From: a virus | Lineage: Duplodnaviria > Heunggongvirae > Uroviricota > Caudoviricetes | Reading direction: 5' to 3' (one strand) | IMG/VR virus record: IMGVR_UViG_2671180603_000011 | Span: 1 to 31,153 of that record | DNA: 31,153 nt | Shown: piece after piece, positions 3,107 to 27,822 of the stretch | Layout: each line of letters begins with the position of its first letter | How positions within the stretch are numbered: position 1 is the first letter of the stretch | The notes under the pieces: generated by a model | Seen by the model: only the letters and a program-made list of their open reading frames with translations | Databases searched by the model: none | Told to the model about the DNA's origin: nothing | Made by a program: the position numbers and the translations under genes

Positions 3107-3688
3107 TCAGCCAACAAATTTAGCAACAAAATACGCGACCGCCGCCGTGAAAATGGTTGTGCACACTGGCACAATAATGCCACTCCAACGCCACTTCGTA
3201 TTATCATCAACCTTGTCAAACCGCCGATTCATCTCATCCATAATCTTGTCAAAGCGTTTATCCATCGCTTCGGTAAGCTCACCCTTCAGGCTGTTAATGT
3301 CTGATTTGAGCTGCTCTTTCAGGTTAGCTGTATCAGATTTAAGCTCACCTTTCAGATTCGCAATATCGCATTTAAGCTCACCTTTCAGATGAGCAATGTC
3401 TGCTTTGAGCTCACCCTTCACCTCACCAACATCGGCTTTGGTTGAGAGGTTTGTAGTGCGTTCAGCAAGCGTCGCAAGGTCGTTTCTTGTTAGCGATAAA
3501 TCACTTTCGAGTCGCTCAATTCGCCTTTCAAGTTTATCTGACATTCCACCTCCACTACTGCCGCCATCGCCGCCATCGCCGCCATCGCCGCCATCGCCGC
3601 CATGATAAAGCACATCACGCTCAGAATGCGACATACTACCTGCTGAATTACCGAAAAGGTTTCTTGCTACATTACCCATTTTCACCAT
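3107..3688 (-). CDS. Membrane-anchored coiled-coil protein with Gly/Asp tract and 11-residue repeats (XhlA/DUF1640-like architecture); function unknown
   Basis: 193 aa; (GDG)n tract; four tandem 11-aa heptad-like repeats (D-I-A-x-L-K-G-E-L-K-x); C-terminal hydrophobic anchor IIVPVCTTIFTAAVAYFVAKFVG. Start overlaps the upstream gene by 17 nt. Architecture assigned from sequence features only. Confidence 0.5.
   Translation of the reverse strand: MVKMGNVARNLFGNSAGSMSHSERDVLYHGGDGGDGGDGGDGGSSGGGMSDKLERRIERLESDLSLTRNDLATLAERTTNLSTKADVGEVKGELKADIAHLKGELKCDIANLKGELKSDTANLKEQLKSDINSLKGELTEAMDKRFDKIMDEMNRRFDKVDDNTKWRWSGIIVPVCTTIFTAAVAYFVAKFVG
3293..3427. repeat. About four imperfect tandem copies of a 33-bp unit inside the 3107..3688 coding sequence
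   Basis: Repeating core agctcacctttcag with periodic flanks (tcagatttaagctcacctttcagattcgcaata / tcgcatttaagctcacctttcagatgagcaatg ...); encodes the 11-aa protein repeats. Confidence 0.7.
3561..3603. repeat. Tandem 9-bp repeat (ccgccatcg, about 4.8 copies) inside the 3107..3688 coding sequence
   Basis: Perfect head-to-tail copies at 3561, 3570, 3579 and 3588 plus a partial copy; encodes the GDGGDGGDGGDGG tract; in-frame unit length. Confidence 0.85.
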
Positions 3689-6527: not shown

Positions 6528-6713
6528 ATGAATTTCAGTTATTCATTCAGTGTACCGAAGTCGTTATTTGTTATCACACTGATTGCAGCCGCAATGTTTT
6601 TTGCCATCTGCATACTGACACTTATTGATACATGGCGGGAAATACGCGACAGACGTCGTCAGAAAAAAAACGGGATGCATATAACGCATTTATTCAGCAC
6701 AAAGAAGAAGTAG
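6528..6713 (+). CDS. Small single-pass membrane protein with basic C-terminal tail
   Basis: 61 aa; hydrophobic helix LFVITLIAAAMFFAICILTLI followed by REIRDRRRQKK; lower GC than neighbours. Confidence 0.4.
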   Translation: MNFSYSFSVPKSLFVITLIAAAMFFAICILTLIDTWREIRDRRRQKKNGMHITHLFSTKKK

Positions 6714-11088: not shown

Positions 11089-13605
11089 ATGAGCCATCAC
11101 AACACACACCTGGCGTACCCGTGGAATGCCCCGCTGCCGGTTATTGATCCTGAGACGTTCGGCAGAGCGTTACCGCAGAAGCCAACCGCATTACAACGGG
11201 CAATCCGGGACTACCTCACCGAAGACATTCGCACTGAGGCCCGGCTGGATGAAGAAACCGTGGTCTTCCTGACAACCACGGACAAAGGCAAACAAATTAA
11301 TTCACACCTTCACCGGGACGAAGAGCGGCAGACAAGGTTGGATAAGCTGGCACGACACAGACGCGAAAATCCGCCAACGGAGGTATCGGAAGCGATAGCC
11401 GAACTTCGCGCCCTGCCACCGTTTCTTGCCAGCGTGCTGATCCGCGATCTGGCACGCCTGAACCGGAAACAGCAAAGCGCCCGCAGCAAAGGTGTAAAAA
11501 ACAATAGCGCATACGTGGCCGATAACTTCGTTCGCCGTGGACTGCGCGCGCGCCTGAAACGTATCGAACGGGTTAACGACCGCTTTGCAACGCCGGCATT
11601 CAAATCCAGTGTCATACGCCATCGCCTTGAAGAGCTGCTCATGCTGCCGCAACTCAGCCGCGACAAGATCCAGCGCATCGCCACACTGACTGCGCAGTTC
11701 TTTACCGCAGAATTTGAACGCATATGTGATGAAGTTCCTGAACAGACCGGAAAGAATAATGACAGCCCGGTTATCTGGCTGCTGGCCTACCAGAAGATGG
11801 CACGCATAGCCTTAACGCTGGGCGTGATCCCGCCATACTGGCCGGAACTCGAAATCAGGCACAACCGACGCACACCGCCGGACCCTGAACTGATACCGGG
11901 TGCGGTACTGCGCATCACCTGCGCGACCTGGTGGAACAACCAGTTACGCCACATCGCCGATCTCTGGCGGGAGGAGTTACTGCGTGCCGCCGGCAGAGTG
12001 TCACGTAAACAATCCCCTTATATCAGCCATGAATCACTACTGGAGTTTCGCGAGAAGCGCCAGCGCACCCGTGATTTTCTCAAAAGCTGGGATATTGAAA
12101 ACGAAGACGGCGAGCGCCTGAGTCTGGAGGAAGTGTACTGGGCGGGCCCGGGAAATCCACGCAACCGCCGCAATGAAATGATGGTCTGCGTCAGAGGGAT
12201 GGAGATGGTAGCCGAATTGCGGGGTGACGTCGCATTCTTCATCACGGTAACAGCCCCTTCCCGCTTTCACAGCGTGAACGAAGACGGCAGCCTGAACCCG
12301 AAATACAACGGTGCCACTGTACGCGATACCAGTGATTATCTGGTTTACGACTTCTTCGCAGCCGTAAGAAAAAAAATCAAAAAAGAGGGGCTGGGCTGGT
12401 ACGGCGTGCGAACCGCTGAGCCACACCATGACGGCACGCCACACTGGCATATGCTGGTATTCACGTCCCCTGAGAACGCAGAGCGCATCATCGAAATTAT
12501 GCGCGACGCAGCGATTAAATCAGATCGCCACGAACTGGGGGACGATATTTCGCCGCGCTTTGAATGCGAGAAGATAGATCCGGAAAAAGGGTCGCCGGCA
12601 AGCTATATCGCAACCTATATCGGTAAGAACCTGGACGCCAGCGCCTTCCACAACAATGATCCGAAAACCGGAAAACCTTACGTCGATAAGGAATCCGGGA
12701 AAACCATGGCGGAAACCGTGGAGAACGCCATTGCATGGGCGAGCCTTCACCGCATACGTCAGTTCCAGTTTTTCGGCATTCCGCCCCGCCAGGTGTGGCG
12801 AGAACTCCGCCGCCTTGCAAGCCAGATGGAGCGCAACCCGGCATCACCGAAGCGACTCGATCATGGAGATATTGACGCCATTATGGCCGCCGCAGACGTG
12901 GGGTGTTTTGCCACCTACATCATGAAACAGGGTGGCGTGCTTATTCCACGCAACCAGTATCTGGTCCGCACCGCATACAAAACCGCAGACGAAGCTAATG
13001 ACTACGGCGAATTCCCGCAGCGCATCTACGGAATTTGCGCCCCGTCACTCGGGGAACGGTACACCATCTGCACCCATCCGGATGAGTGGAAACTGGTCAG
13101 AAAAGAATCTGACGCCGACAACAGCACGGACGAGGGTTTTGACCTTCGGGGCGGCTTCGCCGCACCTTGGACTCGTGGCAATAACTGTCCCGGTGACGAA
13201 AAAACAGCCGGAACCGGCACAGAAAACAGGCAGCGTGGGTCGCGGCTGACGCTTCCGGAAAGCGGCCTGGCGCACTGGTTGCAGACGTTAACCCGTCACG
13301 AGCGGAAACAGCTCATCAGACAGCTTAAAAATCAGCCGCCCACCACGGATACCGGACAAAATAACACCAGACCAGCATCAGACACCCCTGTCAGGGTGGA
13401 GGTTGTCGTGCCTGTCGACACCACGACCATCGCACAAATCACCCGCGAACTCGACGCGCTGGGTGTGCAGCTGCCTGACGCAGCCATTATTTCCGTGAGT
13501 AACGGTGCCCGCGTTCGCCCGGGCGACGGGCGTATCGCGTACTGGAGCGCCACAACCCGCCGTATCGTCATCACACAGGAGTCGTCAGCGGAGGTAAGAT
13601 CATGA
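11089..13605 (+). CDS. Rolling-circle replication initiation endonuclease, P2 gpA-like (HUH superfamily)
   Basis: 838 aa; HUH metal-binding motif TPHWHMLVF (DNA about 12421-12462) and paired active-site tyrosines YIATYIGKN (about 12601-12630) with the Y-x3-Y spacing known from P2 A. Confidence 0.85.
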   Translation: MSHHNTHLAYPWNAPLPVIDPETFGRALPQKPTALQRAIRDYLTEDIRTEARLDEETVVFLTTTDKGKQINSHLHRDEERQTRLDKLARHRRENPPTEVSEAIAELRALPPFLASVLIRDLARLNRKQQSARSKGVKNNSAYVADNFVRRGLRARLKRIERVNDRFATPAFKSSVIRHRLEELLMLPQLSRDKIQRIATLTAQFFTAEFERICDEVPEQTGKNNDSPVIWLLAYQKMARIALTLGVIPPYWPELEIRHNRRTPPDPELIPGAVLRITCATWWNNQLRHIADLWREELLRAAGRVSRKQSPYISHESLLEFREKRQRTRDFLKSWDIENEDGERLSLEEVYWAGPGNPRNRRNEMMVCVRGMEMVAELRGDVAFFITVTAPSRFHSVNEDGSLNPKYNGATVRDTSDYLVYDFFAAVRKKIKKEGLGWYGVRTAEPHHDGTPHWHMLVFTSPENAERIIEIMRDAAIKSDRHELGDDISPRFECEKIDPEKGSPASYIATYIGKNLDASAFHNNDPKTGKPYVDKESGKTMAETVENAIAWASLHRIRQFQFFGIPPRQVWRELRRLASQMERNPASPKRLDHGDIDAIMAAADVGCFATYIMKQGGVLIPRNQYLVRTAYKTADEANDYGEFPQRIYGICAPSLGERYTICTHPDEWKLVRKESDADNSTDEGFDLRGGFAAPWTRGNNCPGDEKTAGTGTENRQRGSRLTLPESGLAHWLQTLTRHERKQLIRQLKNQPPTTDTGQNNTRPASDTPVRVEVVVPVDTTTIAQITRELDALGVQLPDAAIISVSNGARVRPGDGRIAYWSATTRRIVITQESSAEVRS

Positions 13606-22402: not shown

Positions 22403-23527
22403 ATGACGTTTCCACAGGTCACAATTAATCAGCTCAACACCCACAGCGGAAGCAAGCGTGGGATCGCCTGCACCCTGCTGATGGTGGGCGAGCATACAAA
22501 AGCCATTCTCCCGACACCGGTTACAGCACAAACCGATCTTGACTCGCTGTTAGGAACAAAGGATTCATTGTTACGCAGTAACGTGCAGGCGTTTCTGGAT
22601 AATGCCGGACAAAATGCCATGATCTGGCTGGCAACCGTGCAGACACCCCAGCCTTCTGGTCAGACCCGAACGTGGGCTGATGTGGTTATGGATGCACAGG
22701 CCACCCTCTCGGTAGAAGGCGTTGTCGTTGTTCGCGCTAACGCCTCAGGTAACGATATCGACAAAGCGCAGCAACTGCGCAGCGAACTCAATAACACCTT
22801 CCAGCGCTGGACATGGTTTATCCTGGCTGTTCGCGGCTGCGGAACAGGCGAGAAGTGGTCAGAATACGTCACCGCCATGACCGGACTACAGAAAGGCATT
22901 GCCGCTTACGCGGTGCAGCTTACCCCGATGCTGTTCGGCAATGAACCGGGGATACTGGCCGGTCGCCTTTGCAATCCATCAGTGACGATTGCTGATTCCC
23001 CCGCCCGTGTTGCAACCGGCGCACTGGTCAATATGGGCCGCAACGATAAACCGCAGGACAGCGACAAGCGCGAACTGGACATTGCCACCATCAGGGCCCT
23101 GAACAGGGCGCGTTTCAGCGTACCAACGTGGTATCCCGACTACGAAGGTTACTACTGGGCCGACGGCGTCACGCTCGATGTGGACGGTGGCGATTATCAG
23201 GCTATCGAATATCTGCGCGTTGCCGATGAAATGGCCCGTCAGGTGCGTTTGCTGGCTATCCCAAAAATCGCCAATCGCTCACTGAACTCCACCCCGGCAA
23301 GTGTGGCCGCGCACCAACAGCTTTTCGCGAAGCCCATGCGCGACAGCGCAAAGAGCCTGAAAATCAACGGCACGGTATTCCCTGGCCTTTGCATGTCACC
23401 GCGCGACGGCGACGTAAAAATCTCATGGCCGGAAAAAGACAAAGTGCAGATTGCGATCGTGGTTCGCCCGTATAACTGCCCGAAAGAAATCACCATCAGC
23501 ATCATGCTGGACGAAAGCGGAGAGTAA
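22403..23527 (+). CDS. Putative tail sheath protein (DUF2586-like)
   Basis: 374 aa, immediately followed by a roughly 150-aa tube-like gene, which is the typical sheath-tube pairing. Family assignment is from memory and uncertain. Confidence 0.4.
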   Translation: MTFPQVTINQLNTHSGSKRGIACTLLMVGEHTKAILPTPVTAQTDLDSLLGTKDSLLRSNVQAFLDNAGQNAMIWLATVQTPQPSGQTRTWADVVMDAQATLSVEGVVVVRANASGNDIDKAQQLRSELNNTFQRWTWFILAVRGCGTGEKWSEYVTAMTGLQKGIAAYAVQLTPMLFGNEPGILAGRLCNPSVTIADSPARVATGALVNMGRNDKPQDSDKRELDIATIRALNRARFSVPTWYPDYEGYYWADGVTLDVDGGDYQAIEYLRVADEMARQVRLLAIPKIANRSLNSTPASVAAHQQLFAKPMRDSAKSLKINGTVFPGLCMSPRDGDVKISWPEKDKVQIAIVVRPYNCPKEITISIMLDESGE

Positions 23528-23530
23528 CCC

Positions 23531-23992
23531 ATGAACACCGAACGCATCAGTGGTATGAGCTTTGACACGTCATTTAATGGCCGCATCGTTCACGTAAAAA
23601 CCGCCACCCTTGATATTACCGACAACACCAAAGCCATTCAGGAGCGCGGTGTACCTGATGGCTGGGTACGCGGCGACGTGGAAGCCGGCGGTGAAATTGA
23701 ACTGGATACCGTTAACTTCCAGCTTCTTGGTGAAGCCGCGCGTGAAGCAGGGAGCTGGCGCGACATCGAAGAAGCCGACTTTCTCTTCTTTGCCCGTGCA
23801 GCAAAGACAGAACTCAGGGTGGAAGCCTTTGGTTGCAAACTGCTGATCAGTAACCTGCTGAATATCGACAGCAAGGGCGGTGACAACATAAGCCATAAAA
23901 TCAAATTTATGGTGACTTCGCCGGAGTTCGTCAAAATTGACGGTGTTCCGGTTCTCAGCGCCACCGATGTTCGGGACATCATGAACCAATAG
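23531..23992 (+). CDS. Putative tail tube protein
   Basis: 153 aa gene directly after the sheath-like gene; positional inference. Confidence 0.4.
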   Translation: MNTERISGMSFDTSFNGRIVHVKTATLDITDNTKAIQERGVPDGWVRGDVEAGGEIELDTVNFQLLGEAAREAGSWRDIEEADFLFFARAAKTELRVEAFGCKLLISNLLNIDSKGGDNISHKIKFMVTSPEFVKIDGVPVLSATDVRDIMNQ

Positions 23993-24000
23993 GAAAGACA

Positions 24001-24339
24001 ATGCAAAGCACCCCCCACAACTGGAGCGACTGGCTGGCGATAATCAAAGACTGGTTACGTGGTGATATCCCTCTTGACAGTCTGCTGATGACTGCCGTCA
24101 TTGCAGCACTCAGAGTGTTTTACACAGGCCGCAGCTGGCGTCGTCTTTTGCTTGAGGTGCCGTTGTGTTGCCTGCTGGCCGTGGCGGCATTCACCCTCAT
24201 TAAGCCGGTCCCCGTCGCATGGCTGACCGAAGACTGGCGCGTCGGTATCGGTGCCGCAATTGGCCTTATTGGTGTTGAACATATCCGGGCACTGGGTGTG
24301 TTCATCACAAAGAAATTTGCAGGGAAAAGTGACGAATGA
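24001..24339 (+). CDS. Holin (class I, lambda S-like topology)
   Basis: 112 aa with three predicted transmembrane segments and a charged C-terminus (KKFAGKSDE); directly precedes the lysozyme gene with an ATGA overlap. Confidence 0.65.
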   Translation: MQSTPHNWSDWLAIIKDWLRGDIPLDSLLMTAVIAALRVFYTGRSWRRLLLEVPLCCLLAVAAFTLIKPVPVAWLTEDWRVGIGAAIGLIGVEHIRALGVFITKKFAGKSDE

Positions 24340-24779
24340 AAATTTCAGACAACGGGCTGGCCGCACTTAAACGCGAAGAAAACTGCAAACTGACCGCTTA
24401 CCCCGATCCGCGCGGCGTATGGACCATTGGTACAGGTCACACAGGAAAGGTTGATGGTGTCGCAGTTCACAAAGGCATGACCATCACCCAGGACACCGCC
24501 GACAGACTGCTACGCGACGATCTGTCATGGGTGGAGCACTGCATCGCTGAACGGGTAACAGTTCCGCTGAACCAGAGTCAGTATGACGCGTTGTGTAGCC
24601 TGATTTTCAATATCGGCGCTGACGCTTTTATCGGTTCCACCGTTCGCCGTCAGTTAAACGCCGGCAACTACACCGCCGCCGCTGATGCTTTCCTGAAATG
24701 GAGCCGCGCAGGCAGTAACCCGACAATTCTGGCCCCGCGTCGCGGACGTGAGCGGGCAATGTTTCTGGGACAGAGGTAA
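24336..24779 (+). CDS. Phage lysozyme (T4-lysozyme-like muramidase, GH24)
   Basis: Catalytic triad spacing E-x8-D-x5-T within REENCKLTAYPDPRGVWTIGTGHT, matching the T4 lysozyme E11/D20/T26 arrangement. Confidence 0.85.
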   Translation: MKISDNGLAALKREENCKLTAYPDPRGVWTIGTGHTGKVDGVAVHKGMTITQDTADRLLRDDLSWVEHCIAERVTVPLNQSQYDALCSLIFNIGADAFIGSTVRRQLNAGNYTAAADAFLKWSRAGSNPTILAPRRGRERAMFLGQR

Positions 24780-24785
24780 GGCCAC

Positions 24786-25250
24786 ATGAAACGCGCAACA
24801 CTCGCCTTTATCGTCTTCATGGTCGTCGCCGTGGCCGTGCTCGGCTTCACAGCTGACTACTGGCACAACCGCTTCACCAGGGCAGAAAAAGCCCGCCAGA
24901 AAGCCGTAAATCTTGCCGACACCCGACAGCAGACCATTGACGACATGACACTGCGTCAGCGCCAGAACGCCGCGCTTGATGCGAAATACACAAAGGAGCT
25001 CGCCAATGCAAAAGCTGAATCCGAAAAGTTACGCGCCGATCTTGCTTCTGGCCGTCGCCGGTTGCAGCTCCACGCCGTCTGTATGCCCGCCGCCACGCGT
25101 GATACCACCGCCACCGGCTCAACTGATGCAACCGCCGCCCGACTTACTCCGGACGCTGAACGGGATTATCAGCATCTCAGAGCCGAAGCGAAAGCCGTCG
25201 TTGCACAAGTGAACGGCCTGCAACAGTACATTACTGAACAATGTCATTAA
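24786..25250 (+). CDS. Rz-like inner-membrane spanin (i-spanin)
   Basis: 154 aa; N-terminal signal-anchor helix LAFIVFMVVAVAVLGF followed by a long charged coiled-coil region; follows the lysozyme gene. Confidence 0.7.
   Translation: MKRATLAFIVFMVVAVAVLGFTADYWHNRFTRAEKARQKAVNLADTRQQTIDDMTLRQRQNAALDAKYTKELANAKAESEKLRADLASGRRRLQLHAVCMPAATRDTTATGSTDATAARLTPDAERDYQHLRAEAKAVVAQVNGLQQYITEQCH
25006..25212 (+). CDS. Rz1-like outer-membrane lipoprotein spanin (o-spanin) embedded in the +1 frame of Rz
   Basis: ATG at 25006 preceded by AAAGGAG (24992-24998); lipobox LAVAGC; Pro-rich mature part (CPPPRVIPPPPAQLMQPPPD); wholly inside the Rz gene. Confidence 0.65.
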   Translation: MQKLNPKSYAPILLLAVAGCSSTPSVCPPPRVIPPPPAQLMQPPPDLLRTLNGIISISEPKRKPSLHK

Positions 25251-25280
25251 AAAATGGCACCACTCACCGGGGAAAATAGC

Positions 25281-25553
25281 ATGAAAGACGAAAATACCAC
25301 CATCATCACCCTGACCGTCGCAGGCGAGGACATTCGCTTCGCCCCGACCGAAGCTGTCTACAACAAGTTCGTGAATGAAATAACGATGGATAACAAGGTG
25401 GCGCCAGCCAAAAACTACCTGATGCGCTGTGTACACCCGGAAGACAAAGAGAAACTGGAGAAGCTCATTCACCGCCCGGGAGCAGCCCTTCAGATGGCAG
25501 CAAAACTCAATGAAGATTTTGCCGTCAATCTGGATATCACCGTAAAAAAATAA
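25281..25553 (+). CDS. Tail assembly chaperone (gpE/gpG-like), zero-frame product
   Basis: About 90 aa gene immediately upstream of the tape measure gene; ends in a slippery A-run; GGGGA ribosome-binding site before the ATG at 25281. The track ORF starts at 25254. Confidence 0.55.
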   Translation: MKDENTTIITLTVAGEDIRFAPTEAVYNKFVNEITMDNKVAPAKNYLMRCVHPEDKEKLEKLIHRPGAALQMAAKLNEDFAVNLDITVKK

Positions 25554-25741
25554 AGGCGGCACTGTCCGGCATTGAGCGCAACGGCTACGCGCAATATCTG
25601 GTATTACGCCGCCACTGGCTACCGGATGGCGAGGACACACCGGAAGACATTGCCGCTGCGGTCTGGCTGGACAACCGTTATTTCGAAAACATGAGTATTG
25701 CCGTCAATAACGGCATTGCGAGAGCATTTAAAGGTGGGTAA
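25544..25741 (+). other. Programmed -1 ribosomal frameshift site (A AAA AAA) and the -1 frame extension giving an E'-type chaperone fusion
   Basis: The heptamer at 25544-25550 sits on the last two Lys codons of the chaperone. The -1 frame is open for 63 codons (IKAALSGIERNGYAQYLV ... IARAFKGG) and terminates at the TAA at 25739-25741, which overlaps the ATG of the tape measure gene. Confidence 0.6.
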
Positions 25742-27822
25742 TGGCTGCTGAACTTGATTTTACGCTAAGTCTGGTTGATAAGCTGACGAGACCCTTAAAA
25801 CAGGCGCAATCGGCTGTGACCGGATTTGCTGACAAGGCAACAGCCGACTTTAAACGTCTCGGTTTTGGTGTGGCCGGGTTATGGGGGGCTGCTCAGGGAA
25901 TAAAAGGACTGGTCAACCCCGCCCGCGACATGGAAGCCGCGCTGGCCGAAGTCAGCTCGCTGGATGTGGCAAATAAAACACTCGATCAGCTGCGTAAAAC
26001 TTCACAGACGTTTGCCATTAACTACGGCGAAAGCGCCAGCAATTTCGTCCGCAGCGCCTACGATATCCAGTCCGCCATCGCAGGACTTCAGGGTGACGAA
26101 CTGCCAAAATTTACTGAAGCATCCGCCATTCTCGCCAAAGCCACCAAATCAGACACGGCCACCATTACTAACTATATGGGCACCATGTACGGTGTTTTTA
26201 AAAATACCGCAGAGAAGATGGGGCGCACGCAGTGGGTTGAACAAATTGCCGGGCAGACCGCAACCGCCGTTCAGGTGTTCAAAACTACCGGTAATGAAAT
26301 GTCTGCTGCCTTTACTGCGCTGGGTGCCAACGCGCAGGCAATGAAGGTATCTGCCGCTGAACAGTTCGCCGTACTGGGACAGCTCCAGTCCACCATGTCA
26401 GGCAGCGAGGCGGGAACCAAATATAAATCATTCCTGGCGGGGATTGGGAATGCGCAAAAAGTGCTGGGGCTGAACTTTACCAACCGGGACGGCAGTGCCA
26501 GAAGCATTACCGGTATCATCGACCTGATTAAAGGAAAGTTTGGCGATCTGTCAAAAGTGGCAGATGCAGACCTGCTGAAAAAAGCCTTTGGCAGCGATGA
26601 AGCGGTGTCCATGATTAAACTACTGGCCGGAGATGTTGACGGGCTGAAACGGAACATCAATACATTAGGTAACATCAAAGGCATGGATAAAGCCATCGAA
26701 ATGGCGAAAAAGATGGTTGACCCGTGGGATCAGGTTAATTCTTTACTGGAGCAGGTTCGCGTCAGCATTGGTCTGCGGCTCGATCCCGTCTTTGCCCCGT
26801 TCCTGCAAAAAATCATCACCGGCGGGAAAGCCTTCATGAAATGGCTGGATACGTTCCCCAATATTGCCCGCTGGCTGGGATATATCACTGCAATGACCCT
26901 CGCCTTTGCCGCAGCAGGGGCGCTTGCCAGTATCACGATGGGGGCCTTCGGCTTTATCATGACCGGGCTCAGCGGAATTGCTGGCGTGCTGAAAGGCGCA
27001 TGGAAAGGACTAATCTTCACCCTGGATTTATTACGCCCCTCCCTGCTTTCAACCCGTCTTGGCCTGATGGGGCTATGGATTCAGGAAAAAGCCGTCTGGG
27101 TGTGGTCAAAACTGGTCGCTCTTTGGGCAGGGATCTGTAAAGCGGCGATCGTAGCCTGGAACGTAGTGTTACGTGCGGGCGCGGTTGCAATGCGCCTGTG
27201 GGGTGTGGCGACGGCATTCGCAGGCGGTGCGCTGCAACTCCTGATAAGCCCCATAACCCTGATTATTCTCGCCATTGCCGCACTTGCCGTAGGGATCTGT
27301 CTGGCTATCAAATACTGGGACAATATTAAAGCCGCCATCATGGACACGGAAGCTTTCTGTGCCCTGCTAAAAGTCATTAACGCTGTGGTGGGCTGGTTTG
27401 ATGATGCATGGAACAGCATTAAAGCCGGATGGGACAATCTGACGAACTGGTTTAAAAATTTTTCGCTGGCCGACACGTTCGGCAATATCACGGCTGGAAT
27501 TGGCAAGCTCTTTGACGGCATATGGGATTCCATTAAGAGCTCCTTTACCGGGACATGGAACTGGATAGCAGAGAAGCTCAACAAAATCCCCGGTGTCAAT
27601 ATCAGCACCGCACAACAGACCGTCGCACCGACACCCGCCCCGGAGCTTATCACTGGCAACCGTAGCGCCGCCATCCAGGGTGGGCCGGTAAGTCACCAGA
27701 TAAGCAACAACCGGGGCGACAAAGTCACCAATAACAACGTTAAGCAGGATATCACACTGCACGTTGACACCCTGGCGACACCGGGACAACTGGCGGAATA
27801 CAGCGAACTGGCAGCGGGGTGA
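25741..27822 (+). CDS. Tail tape measure protein
   Basis: 693 aa; Ala/Gly-rich helical N-terminal half and hydrophobic segments in the C-terminal half; directly downstream of the frameshifted chaperone pair. Confidence 0.8.
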   Translation: MAAELDFTLSLVDKLTRPLKQAQSAVTGFADKATADFKRLGFGVAGLWGAAQGIKGLVNPARDMEAALAEVSSLDVANKTLDQLRKTSQTFAINYGESASNFVRSAYDIQSAIAGLQGDELPKFTEASAILAKATKSDTATITNYMGTMYGVFKNTAEKMGRTQWVEQIAGQTATAVQVFKTTGNEMSAAFTALGANAQAMKVSAAEQFAVLGQLQSTMSGSEAGTKYKSFLAGIGNAQKVLGLNFTNRDGSARSITGIIDLIKGKFGDLSKVADADLLKKAFGSDEAVSMIKLLAGDVDGLKRNINTLGNIKGMDKAIEMAKKMVDPWDQVNSLLEQVRVSIGLRLDPVFAPFLQKIITGGKAFMKWLDTFPNIARWLGYITAMTLAFAAAGALASITMGAFGFIMTGLSGIAGVLKGAWKGLIFTLDLLRPSLLSTRLGLMGLWIQEKAVWVWSKLVALWAGICKAAIVAWNVVLRAGAVAMRLWGVATAFAGGALQLLISPITLIILAIAALAVGICLAIKYWDNIKAAIMDTEAFCALLKVINAVVGWFDDAWNSIKAGWDNLTNWFKNFSLADTFGNITAGIGKLFDGIWDSIKSSFTGTWNWIAEKLNKIPGVNISTAQQTVAPTPAPELITGNRSAAIQGGPVSHQISNNRGDKVTNNNVKQDITLHVDTLATPGQLAEYSELAAG

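What the first reader, a model, noticed from the sequence alone, without database searches (positions are those of the whole stretch)
25544..25741. Programmed -1 frameshift at an A AAA AAA heptamer producing an extended tail chaperone that ends on the tape measure start codon
The zero frame stops right after the slippery heptamer. The -1 frame then stays open for 63 codons and terminates at a TAA sharing its last base with the tape measure ATG. This is the conserved chaperone frameshift of tailed phages (lambda G/GT, P2 E/E') and confirms the identity of both flanking genes.
Basis: partly seen in the sequence, partly recalled or inferred. Interest (0 to 1): 0.5.

Follow-up and report, generated by a model that had tools for sequence, protein, structure and literature searches.

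The report
Tail chaperone -1 frameshift, HP1-type prophage
This is the ordinary programmed -1 ribosomal frameshift that long-tailed phages use to make a short and a long tail-assembly chaperone just upstream of the tape measure gene, here in an HP1-like prophage of E. coli where the public annotation misses it.

Summary
The 90-aa gene 25281..25553 reads GTA AAA AAA TAA. The A_AAA_AAA heptamer is 25544-25550. The -1 frame then runs 63 codons to TAA 25739-25741, whose last A starts the tape measure ATG. The 0-frame protein is Pfam Phage_TAC_10 (3e-31), and its model has the HK97 chaperone fold. The -1 extension is a complete Pfam DUF6890 domain (6e-24) with no usable start codon of its own; PGAP calls a truncated 30-aa protein from an ATT.

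All relatives examined keep an in-phase A_AAA_AAN heptamer at the same position, followed by a -1 frame DUF6890 ORF that ends at or within about 30 nt of the tape measure start. These are 20 named or assembled relatives from eleven host genera plus 64 distinct IMG/VR loci. No in-frame fusion exists among 33 DUF6890 representatives from 1.84 billion proteins.

The proteins are not sequence relatives of P2 E/E' or lambda G/GT; this is the HP1-subgroup version, already projected in one GenBank record (phage ACA1). No conserved downstream RNA stimulator was found, but a 0-frame stop directly follows the heptamer in nearly all relatives. The finding is ordinary: a new member of a known kind, useful mainly as an annotation correction.

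The parts
25281..25553 (+). Tail assembly chaperone gene, 0 frame (90 aa). An alternative upstream ATG at 25254 would give 99 aa.
25544..25550 (+). Slippery heptamer A_AAA_AAA (X_XXY_YYZ in 0-frame phase); site of the -1 shift.
   Evidence: It is the only heptamer in the frame overlap. TAAAAAA is invariant in the 18-sequence alignment. A_AAA_AAN is present in all 21 sequences inspected individually and in 64/64 distinct IMG/VR loci.
25551..25553 (+). 0-frame stop codon TAA directly 3' of the heptamer; a possible 'shifty stop' contribution.
   Evidence: A stop (TAA, TAG or TGA) directly follows the heptamer in 18 of 21 individually inspected sequences and in 64/64 IMG/VR loci.
25550..25741 (+). 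-1 frame extension: 63 codons plus TAA. The DUF6890 domain is about 25604-25735. The predicted fusion product is 153 aa (...NLDITVKK|IKAALSGIERNG...AFKGG).
   Evidence: Pfam DUF6890 6e-24, full length 44/44; phrog_7050 5e-24. The only canonical start in this frame is ATG 25691. PGAP uses ATT 25649 for a 30-aa call. Variation is concentrated at third positions in -1 phase: 0.40/0.38/0.66. The model is a two-helix hairpin, pLDDT 89.6.
25731..25737 (+). Shine-Dalgarno-like AAGGTGG for the tape measure gene, embedded in the last codons (K G G) of the extension.
   Evidence: Read; inference only.
25741..27822 (+). Tape measure protein gene (693 aa). Its ATG overlaps the extension's TAA by one base.
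   Evidence: Pfam PhageMin_Tail 1.7e-28; phrog_28 5e-91.
22403..23992 (+). Context: tail sheath (22403..23527) and tail tube (23531..23992) genes of the HP1 type.
   Evidence: DUF2586/phrog_907 tail sheath; Phage_HP1_Orf24/phrog_1182.
24001..25250 (+). Context: lysis cassette (holin, lysozyme, Rz with embedded Rz1) lying between the tube gene and the chaperone gene, as in HP1-group phages.
   Evidence: PGAP names; Phage_lysis/phrog_13. The same order is seen in ESSI2_ev239.

Best explanation

Most ribosomes read GTA AAA AAA and stop at TAA 25551, giving the 90-aa chaperone. A minority slip back one base while tRNA-Lys occupies AAA 25545-47 (P site) and AAA 25548-50 (A site). They re-pair with AAA 25544-46 and AAA 25547-49, read ATA at 25550 and continue for 63 codons. 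This gives a 153-aa protein: the same chaperone domain plus a C-terminal two-helix DUF6890 domain.

By analogy with lambda G/GT and P2 E/E+E', many copies of the short form and a few of the long form coat the tape measure protein, and the extension recruits the tail tube protein. The slip frequency therefore fixes the ratio of the two chaperones.

Shown here: the anatomy of the site, the family and fold assignments, coding in the -1 frame, the lack of an independent start, and strict conservation of the site. Inferred: that slippage is ribosomal, its efficiency, and the roles of the two products.
For: Anatomy.

Protein identity:
- Chaperone: Phage_TAC_10 3e-31; fold match to HK97 chaperone 2ob9 and to 3fgx.
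- Extension: complete DUF6890 domain 6e-24 / phrog_7050.
- The -1 frame has no ATG/GTG/TTG before the domain. PGAP resorts to an ATT start that truncates the domain.

Conservation:
- tblastn of the conceptual fusion finds 76 phage records, every one as two pieces in two frames covering at least 93% of the query.
- 17 phages (hosts: Escherichia, Cronobacter, Yersinia, Salmonella, Aeromonas, Haemophilus, Pasteurella, Vibrio, Salinivibrio, Pseudoalteromonas, Pseudomonas) plus Salmonella and Edwardsiella prophages and one metagenome contig all carry an in-phase A_AAA_AA[A/C/G] at the homologous position, followed by a -1 ORF.
- In four of these phages the -1 frame opens only 3 nt before the heptamer, so the shift must occur on it.
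- 64/64 distinct IMG/VR loci have A_AAA_AAC (59) or A_AAA_AAA (5).
- TAAAAAA is invariant, including two synonymous third positions, while neighbouring third positions differ in 60-66% of sequence pairs. The last 0-frame residue varies (K or N), so selection acts on the nucleotides.
- None of 33 true DUF6890 representatives from 1.84 billion proteins is an in-frame fusion; all are 28-81 aa.

Precedent:
- The phage ACA1 record annotates the homologous gene as a joined CDS with a 'projected programmed frameshift analogous to P2'.
- Lambda G/GT mechanism and higher efficiency in P2: PMC5009743.
- P2 T6G site: PMC3931495.
- An A7 cassette gave 10% frameshifting in E. coli: PMC3711429.
Against: - There is no experimental evidence for the fusion protein in this prophage or, as far as I could find, in any HP1-type phage.
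- No conserved downstream stimulatory RNA structure was found. RNAalifold predicts none. A candidate helix is 55% paired against 50% in shuffles. The window's own downstream fold is not unusual, with z -0.3 and -1.1. Rfam finds nothing.
- In E. coli, A_AAA_AAA and A_AAA_AAC are much less shift-prone than A_AAA_AAG (PMC5009743), so efficiency may be only a few percent.
- Insertion of one A by RNA polymerase on the A7 run would give exactly the same protein.
- The IMG/VR sample was retrieved partly with a peptide pattern ending VK[KN]. That biases it towards this C-terminus, though not towards particular codons.
Confidence: 0.88

Rival explanations
1. Transcriptional slippage. RNA polymerase inserts one extra A on the A7 run in a fraction of transcripts. 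Standard translation of those mRNAs (GTA AAA AAA ATA AAG ...) then yields the identical 153-aa protein.
For: The window, five of the 17 named phages, three further relatives and 5 of 64 IMG/VR loci have a pure A7 run. Poly-A runs are known slippage sites for transcription as well as translation (PMC3711429; PMC4066793).
Against: Most relatives have A6C, and one has A6G. Runs that short are a poor substrate for productive RNA polymerase slippage; documented cases use A runs longer than 7 (PMC3711429). They do form a textbook X_XXY_YYZ tandem-slippage heptamer in exactly the right phase. The run length is held at 6-7 rather than extended, and phase conservation matters only for a ribosomal mechanism.
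Confidence: 0.07
2. Two separate genes. The DUF6890 peptide is initiated independently, as in the PGAP annotation (ATT at 25649, 30 aa) or from another non-canonical start, and no fusion protein is made.
For: PGAP and several phage records annotate a stand-alone small ORF. All DUF6890 database entries are small proteins.
Against: - The window has no ATG/GTG/TTG before the domain. The ATT call removes about a third of the 44-residue Pfam domain.
- Positions of the first canonical start in the -1 frame are scattered among relatives, and in some lie only near the 3' end.
- Amino-acid conservation and -1 phase codon periodicity run back to within a few codons of the heptamer.
- The invariant in-phase heptamer would be unexplained.
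Confidence: 0.03
3. Decay or error. A single ancestral gene was broken by a 1-nt indel in a homopolymer, either a pseudogene in a dead prophage or a sequencing error.
For: Homopolymer runs are indel hot spots. The element is a prophage, and related degraded copies exist (P0024).
Against: The sequence is identical in six independently assembled complete E. coli genomes. The same two-frame arrangement is found in every relative, including isolated viable phages such as HP1, K139, phiO18P and ESSI-2. No in-frame version exists anywhere.
Confidence: 0.01

Closest known systems
HP1-subgroup Peduoviridae chaperone pair (HP1 orf26 and downstream -1 ORF; Pseudoalteromonas phage ACA1 gp36/gp36a)
   Same: Same protein families (Phage_TAC_10 + DUF6890), same heptamer type A_AAA_AAN at the homologous position, same -1 direction, and the same gene order: sheath, tube, lysis cassette, chaperone, tape measure. 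ACA1 gp36a is annotated as a projected programmed frameshift.
   Different: The window has A_AAA_AAA, where HP1 and most enterobacterial relatives have A_AAA_AAC. In ACA1 and phi3 the 0 frame runs 7-9 codons past the heptamer; here it stops at once. Protein identity to HP1 is about 42%.
Phage P2 E / E+E' (Christie et al. 2002, PMID 12426340)
   Same: Myovirus of the same family. A small gene directly upstream of the tape measure gene T, a -1 extension lacking its own initiation site, and an extension that ends overlapping the start of T (PMC3931495).
   Different: - Different Pfam families: Phage_TAC_7 + Phage_P2_GpE.
- No detectable similarity to the window proteins: hhalign probability 0.4-0.5%.
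- The slippery site is T_TTT_TTG, and six 0-frame codons follow it.
- No lysis cassette lies between FII and E.
Phage lambda G / GT
   Same: [quoted passage not shown] The common domain binds the tape measure and the extension binds the tube protein (PMC5009743).
   Different: Lambda is a siphovirus. Its heptamer is G_GGA_AAG (from my own knowledge). It shares no Pfam family with the window proteins at E <= 1.
HK97 tail assembly chaperone (PDB 2ob9) and uncharacterised 3fgx / YqbN 3klu
E. coli dnaX and IS-element -1 frameshift sites (A_AAA_AAG)
   Same: A-rich X_XXY_YYZ heptamer decoded by tRNA-Lys in E. coli (PMC5009743).
   Different: Those sites use the far shiftier AAG A-site codon together with an upstream SD-like element and/or a downstream hairpin. 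Neither stimulator was found conserved here.

Membership tests
Frameshifted tail assembly chaperone pair of long-tailed phages (G/GT type) | Located directly upstream of the tape measure gene and downstream of the tail tube gene. | tested here: met
   The chaperone 25281..25553 and its extension end on the tape measure ATG 25741. Sheath and tube lie at 22403..23992, with a lysis cassette in between as in HP1-group phages.
Frameshifted tail assembly chaperone pair of long-tailed phages (G/GT type) | Second ORF overlaps the 3' end of the first in the -1 frame and lacks its own start codon or RBS. | tested here: met
   The -1 frame is open from 25514 to 25741. Its only canonical start is ATG 25691, 16 codons from the end. 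PGAP uses ATT.
Frameshifted tail assembly chaperone pair of long-tailed phages (G/GT type) | X_XXY_YYZ slippery heptamer in 0-frame phase inside the overlap. | tested here: met
   A_AAA_AAA at 25544-25550 is the only such heptamer in the overlap.
Frameshifted tail assembly chaperone pair of long-tailed phages (G/GT type) | Site and two-frame architecture conserved among diverged relatives. | tested here: met
   Met in 20 of 20 individually inspected relatives and in 64 of 64 distinct IMG/VR loci. There are no in-frame fusions.
Frameshifted tail assembly chaperone pair of long-tailed phages (G/GT type) | The N-terminal protein has the tail assembly chaperone fold or family. | tested here: met
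   [not shown]
Frameshifted tail assembly chaperone pair of long-tailed phages (G/GT type) | The fusion protein is actually produced at a low fixed ratio and is required for tail assembly, with binding to the tape measure and tube proteins. | not testable with these tools
   Needs a reporter assay, mass spectrometry and genetics. Known for lambda and P2 only (PMC5009743; PMC3931495).
HP1-type chaperone (Pfam Phage_TAC_10 + DUF6890) | Sequence membership of both parts above the curated cut-offs. | tested here: met
   107.7 bits against a cut-off of 25.7, and 84 bits against 23.6. 42% identity to HP1 over 93% of the fusion.
P2 gpE / E' (Pfam Phage_TAC_7 + Phage_P2_GpE) | Sequence homology to P2 gpE and to E'. 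| tested here: not met
   No Pfam hit at E <= 1. hhalign probability is 0.4% for E and 0.5% for E'. P2's own assignments were confirmed.
P2 gpE / E' (Pfam Phage_TAC_7 + Phage_P2_GpE) | T_TTT_TTG (T6G) slippery sequence. | tested here: not met
   The window has A_AAA_AAA; the P2 site was read.
Lambda gpG / gpGT | Sequence membership of the lambda gpG and gpT families. | tested here: not met
   Only Phage_TAC_10, DUF6890 and a sub-threshold DUF6848 hit were found at E <= 1.

The most novel reading that the evidence does not exclude
In the HP1 subgroup the whole recoding signal may be just the A-run heptamer plus an immediately adjacent 0-frame stop codon of any identity (a 'shifty stop'), with no RNA structure or SD-like stimulator. 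Alternatively, in the A7 variants such as this one, part of the long product may come from transcriptional rather than ribosomal slippage. Either would make this family a minimal, stop-assisted variant of the chaperone frameshift. It would also give the orphan Pfam family DUF6890 a function, as the tube-recruiting extension domain.
Probability: 0.3. Interest if true: 0.3.

Novelty: new member of a known kind. Interest (0 to 1): 0.15.

Why it matters
The value is mostly practical. RefSeq/PGAP annotates this locus as a chaperone plus a 30-aa 'DUF6890 family protein' starting at ATT, and most HP1-group phage records leave the extension unannotated or list it as a hypothetical protein. Recognising DUF6890 as the frameshift-encoded C-terminal domain of Phage_TAC_10 chaperones would correct hundreds of annotations and give a function to a domain of unknown function.

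[quoted passage not shown] It could be used to study how low-efficiency -1 frameshifting is tuned without an obvious RNA stimulator. It does not change the understanding of phage tail assembly.

Tried and rejected
- Conserved downstream stimulatory structure: RNAalifold on 18 aligned sites gave no consensus. A hairpin seen in the ESSI-2 and Vibrio lineages is not family-wide: 55% paired against 50% in shuffles. The window's own fold is not exceptional.
- Upstream SD-like stimulator: only a weak GGA about 9 nt upstream, not conserved in the alignment. Rejected.
- Rfam scan of 25200-25900 at E <= 1: nothing.
- Promoter or terminator between the chaperone stop and the tape measure gene: none.
- Homology to P2 E and E': an apparent 'HW.P...W' resemblance seen by eye was not supported by hhalign.
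- PDB sequence search with the fusion: no significant hit.
- Fold search of the DUF6890 model against viral predicted structures: no match with E <= 0.001. A two-helix hairpin is uninformative.
- Search for natural in-frame fusions: none. The two long hits, P0030 and P0062, are repeat-protein artefacts. P0024 is a deletion derivative.
- Literature: Christie 2002 and Xu 2004 are not held, so I could not check whether they list HP1 explicitly. No paper mentions DUF6890.

Full report
**Context**

The window is E. coli chromosome. It contains an nlpC-like gene and btuD/btuE/btuC at 29-2914, followed by a P2-family prophage from about 3.1 kb onward.

The 601 bases around the finding are 100% identical in 6 of 5,426 complete E. 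coli genomes. Gene content and order match the HP1 subgroup of Peduoviridae:
- P2-like head genes
- HP1-type sheath (DUF2586/phrog_907) and tube (Phage_HP1_Orf24)
- holin, lysozyme and Rz
- a small gene
- tape measure, DUF2590, baseplate J

The same order is seen in Escherichia phage ESSI2_ev239. The split of Peduoviridae into P2 and HP1 subgroups with very divergent tail modules is described in PMC10612066.

**The observation**

- The 0-frame gene is 25281..25553, using the PGAP start. An upstream ATG at 25254 is also possible.
- It ends ...ACC GTA AAA AAA TAA.
- The heptamer A_AAA_AAA occupies 25544-25550 in X_XXY_YYZ phase, and TAA follows at 25551-25553.
- The -1 frame is open from 25514. 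From ATA at 25550 it encodes 63 residues: IKAALSGIERNGYAQYLVLRRHWLPDGEDTPEDIAAAVWLDNRYFENMSIAVNNGIARAFKGG.
- It stops at TAA 25739-25741, whose last base is the A of the tape measure ATG.

An A7 run by itself is not rare: the window has 16 against 7.5 expected. The argument rests on the conjunction with the features below.

**What the two frames encode**

- The 0-frame protein matches Pfam Phage_TAC_10 at 3e-31.
- An AlphaFold model built on 16 homologues has pLDDT 86. It is a beta hairpin followed by four helices.
- The -1 extension matches the whole of Pfam DUF6890 (44/44 positions, 6e-24) and phrog_7050. It is modelled as a confident two-helix hairpin, pLDDT 89.6.
- The downstream gene is a tape measure protein: PhageMin_Tail 2e-28, phrog_28 5e-91.

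**The extension cannot be a separate gene**

- The -1 frame has no ATG, GTG or TTG ahead of the domain. The only one is ATG 25691, 16 codons from the end.
- PGAP nevertheless calls a 30-aa 'DUF6890 family protein' from an ATT at 25649. That removes about a third of the domain.
- In relatives, the first canonical start in this frame lies at scattered positions.
- Amino-acid conservation reaches back to a few codons after the heptamer.
- Pairwise nucleotide differences downstream of the heptamer are 0.40, 0.38 and 0.66 at codon positions 1, 2 and 3 of the -1 frame. This is the signature of coding in that frame.

**Conservation**

tblastn with the conceptual 153-aa fusion finds 76 phage records. 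Each is hit as two pieces in two frames covering at least 93% of the query.

I fetched 17 of these phages: ESSI-2, ev239, ev040, YenM324, SI7, phiO18P, P05B, HP1, CFP3, F108, K139, PV94, SMHB1, two Vibrio cyclitrophicus phages, ACA1 and phi3. I added Salmonella and Edwardsiella prophages and one metagenome contig.

- All 20 have an in-phase A_AAA_AAN at the homologous position. The -1 frame then carries a DUF6890 ORF that ends at or within about 30 nt of the tape measure start.
- Counting the window as well (21 sequences), N is C in 11, A in 9 and G in 1.
- In ev239, ESSI-2, YenM324 and ev040 the -1 frame opens only 3 nt before the heptamer. The overlap is 13 nt, so the shift can only occur on the heptamer.
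- In a gap-free 18-sequence alignment TAAAAAA is invariant, including the synonymous third positions of the Val/Leu codon and the first Lys codon.
- The last 0-frame residue changes between Lys and Asn. Selection is therefore on the nucleotides.
- A scan of IMG/VR gave 80 loci, 64 of them distinct. All have the -1 arrangement: 59 with A_AAA_AAC and 5 with A_AAA_AAA.
- One retrieval pattern in that scan ended VK[KN]. That biases the residues recovered but not the codons.
- A search of 1.84 billion representative proteins with the extension found 33 genuine DUF6890 proteins, all 28-81 aa. None is fused in frame to a chaperone domain.

**Mechanism**

The best-supported reading is tandem -1 ribosomal slippage of the two tRNAs on A_AAA_AAA. 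It produces a minority 153-aa chaperone-DUF6890 protein alongside the 90-aa chaperone.

By analogy with lambda G/GT, the shared domain would bind the tape measure protein and the extension would recruit the tube subunit, with the slip rate setting the ratio (PMC5009743). P2 E+E' is made at a higher frequency than lambda GT (PMC5009743) and slips on a T6G sequence (PMC3931495). That E' is essential and made at about 10% comes from my recollection of Christie 2002, which I could not open.

No conserved stimulator was found:
- RNAalifold predicts nothing.
- A lineage-specific hairpin 8-9 nt downstream in the ESSI-2 and Vibrio groups is not general.
- The window's downstream fold has z -0.3 to -1.1.
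- Rfam is silent.

The one conserved extra feature is a 0-frame stop of any identity (TAA, TAG or TGA) directly after the heptamer. It is present in 18 of the 21 individually inspected sequences and in 64 of 64 IMG/VR loci. It may act as a 'shifty stop' (Weiss et al. 1987, cited in PMC5009743). This is inference only.

In E. coli, A_AAA_AAA and A_AAA_AAC are far less shift-prone than A_AAA_AAG. One A7 cassette gave 10% (PMC3711429). A low-percent efficiency is therefore plausible, and it is appropriate for this system.

**Rivals**

- Transcriptional insertion of one A would give the same protein and cannot be excluded for the A7 variants. The predominance of A6C and the strict phase conservation argue for the ribosome.
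- Independent initiation is contradicted by the missing start codon and the invariant heptamer.
- Pseudogene or sequencing error is excluded by identity across six genomes and by the same layout in viable isolated phages.

**Comparison with known systems**

In function and architecture this is the G/GT-type chaperone frameshift. By sequence it belongs to the HP1-type pair, Phage_TAC_10 + DUF6890. It does not belong to the other two pairs:
- P2 gpE is Phage_TAC_7 and E' is Phage_P2_GpE. hhalign probabilities against the window families are 0.4-0.5%. P2 slips on T_TTT_TTG with six more 0-frame codons after the heptamer.
- No lambda G or T family is hit.

Within the HP1 group the frameshift has been projected at least once, for Pseudoalteromonas phage ACA1 gp36a. 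HP1, K139, phiO18P and others, and RefSeq E. coli, leave it unannotated.

**Verdict**

It is a routine, well-understood phage feature: a new member of a known kind. The added value is an annotation correction and a function for DUF6890. Interest is low.

Noticed in passing
window 25006-25212 (+), inside Rz 24786-25250: An embedded o-spanin (Rz1) gene lies in the +1 frame of the Rz gene. It has SD AAGGAG at 24993-24998. The product MQKLNPKSYAPILLLAVAGCSS... carries a lipobox (LAVAGC) and a proline-rich tail. It is not annotated in the RefSeq record, which lists only 'lysis protein'.
   Followed up: partly
window 25649-25741 (= L001 4450-4542): PGAP annotates a 30-aa 'DUF6890 family protein' starting at an ATT codon. 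This is an artefact of the unannotated frameshift and truncates the 44-residue domain.
   Followed up: yes
protein P0024 (Salmonella enterica serovar Montevideo, 96 aa): An in-frame deletion joins the first ~52 residues of a TAC_10 chaperone ('...NYL') directly to the DUF6890 part ('RRHWLP...'). It removes the slippery site and is presumably a degraded prophage.
   Followed up: partly
window 12369-12376 and 6663-6670 (+): Two A8 runs, longer than the frameshift heptamer. The first lies inside the 838-aa replication-type ORF 11089..13605. I did not check whether either has any recoding role.
   Followed up: no
L002, L003, L018 (ESSI-2 group) and L011, L013, L015 (Vibrio/Salinivibrio): These lineages have a stable 8-13 bp hairpin starting about 3-9 nt after the heptamer (z -1.9 to -4.1). 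The window and several other relatives lack it, so stimulators may be lineage-specific.
   Followed up: partly
[not shown]
   Followed up: no
window 3107-3688 (-): A 193-aa ORF at the prophage edge has a (GGD)n tract and repeated 'LKGELK.DI.NLK' heptad-like units, followed by a C-terminal hydrophobic segment. Function unknown.
   Followed up: no
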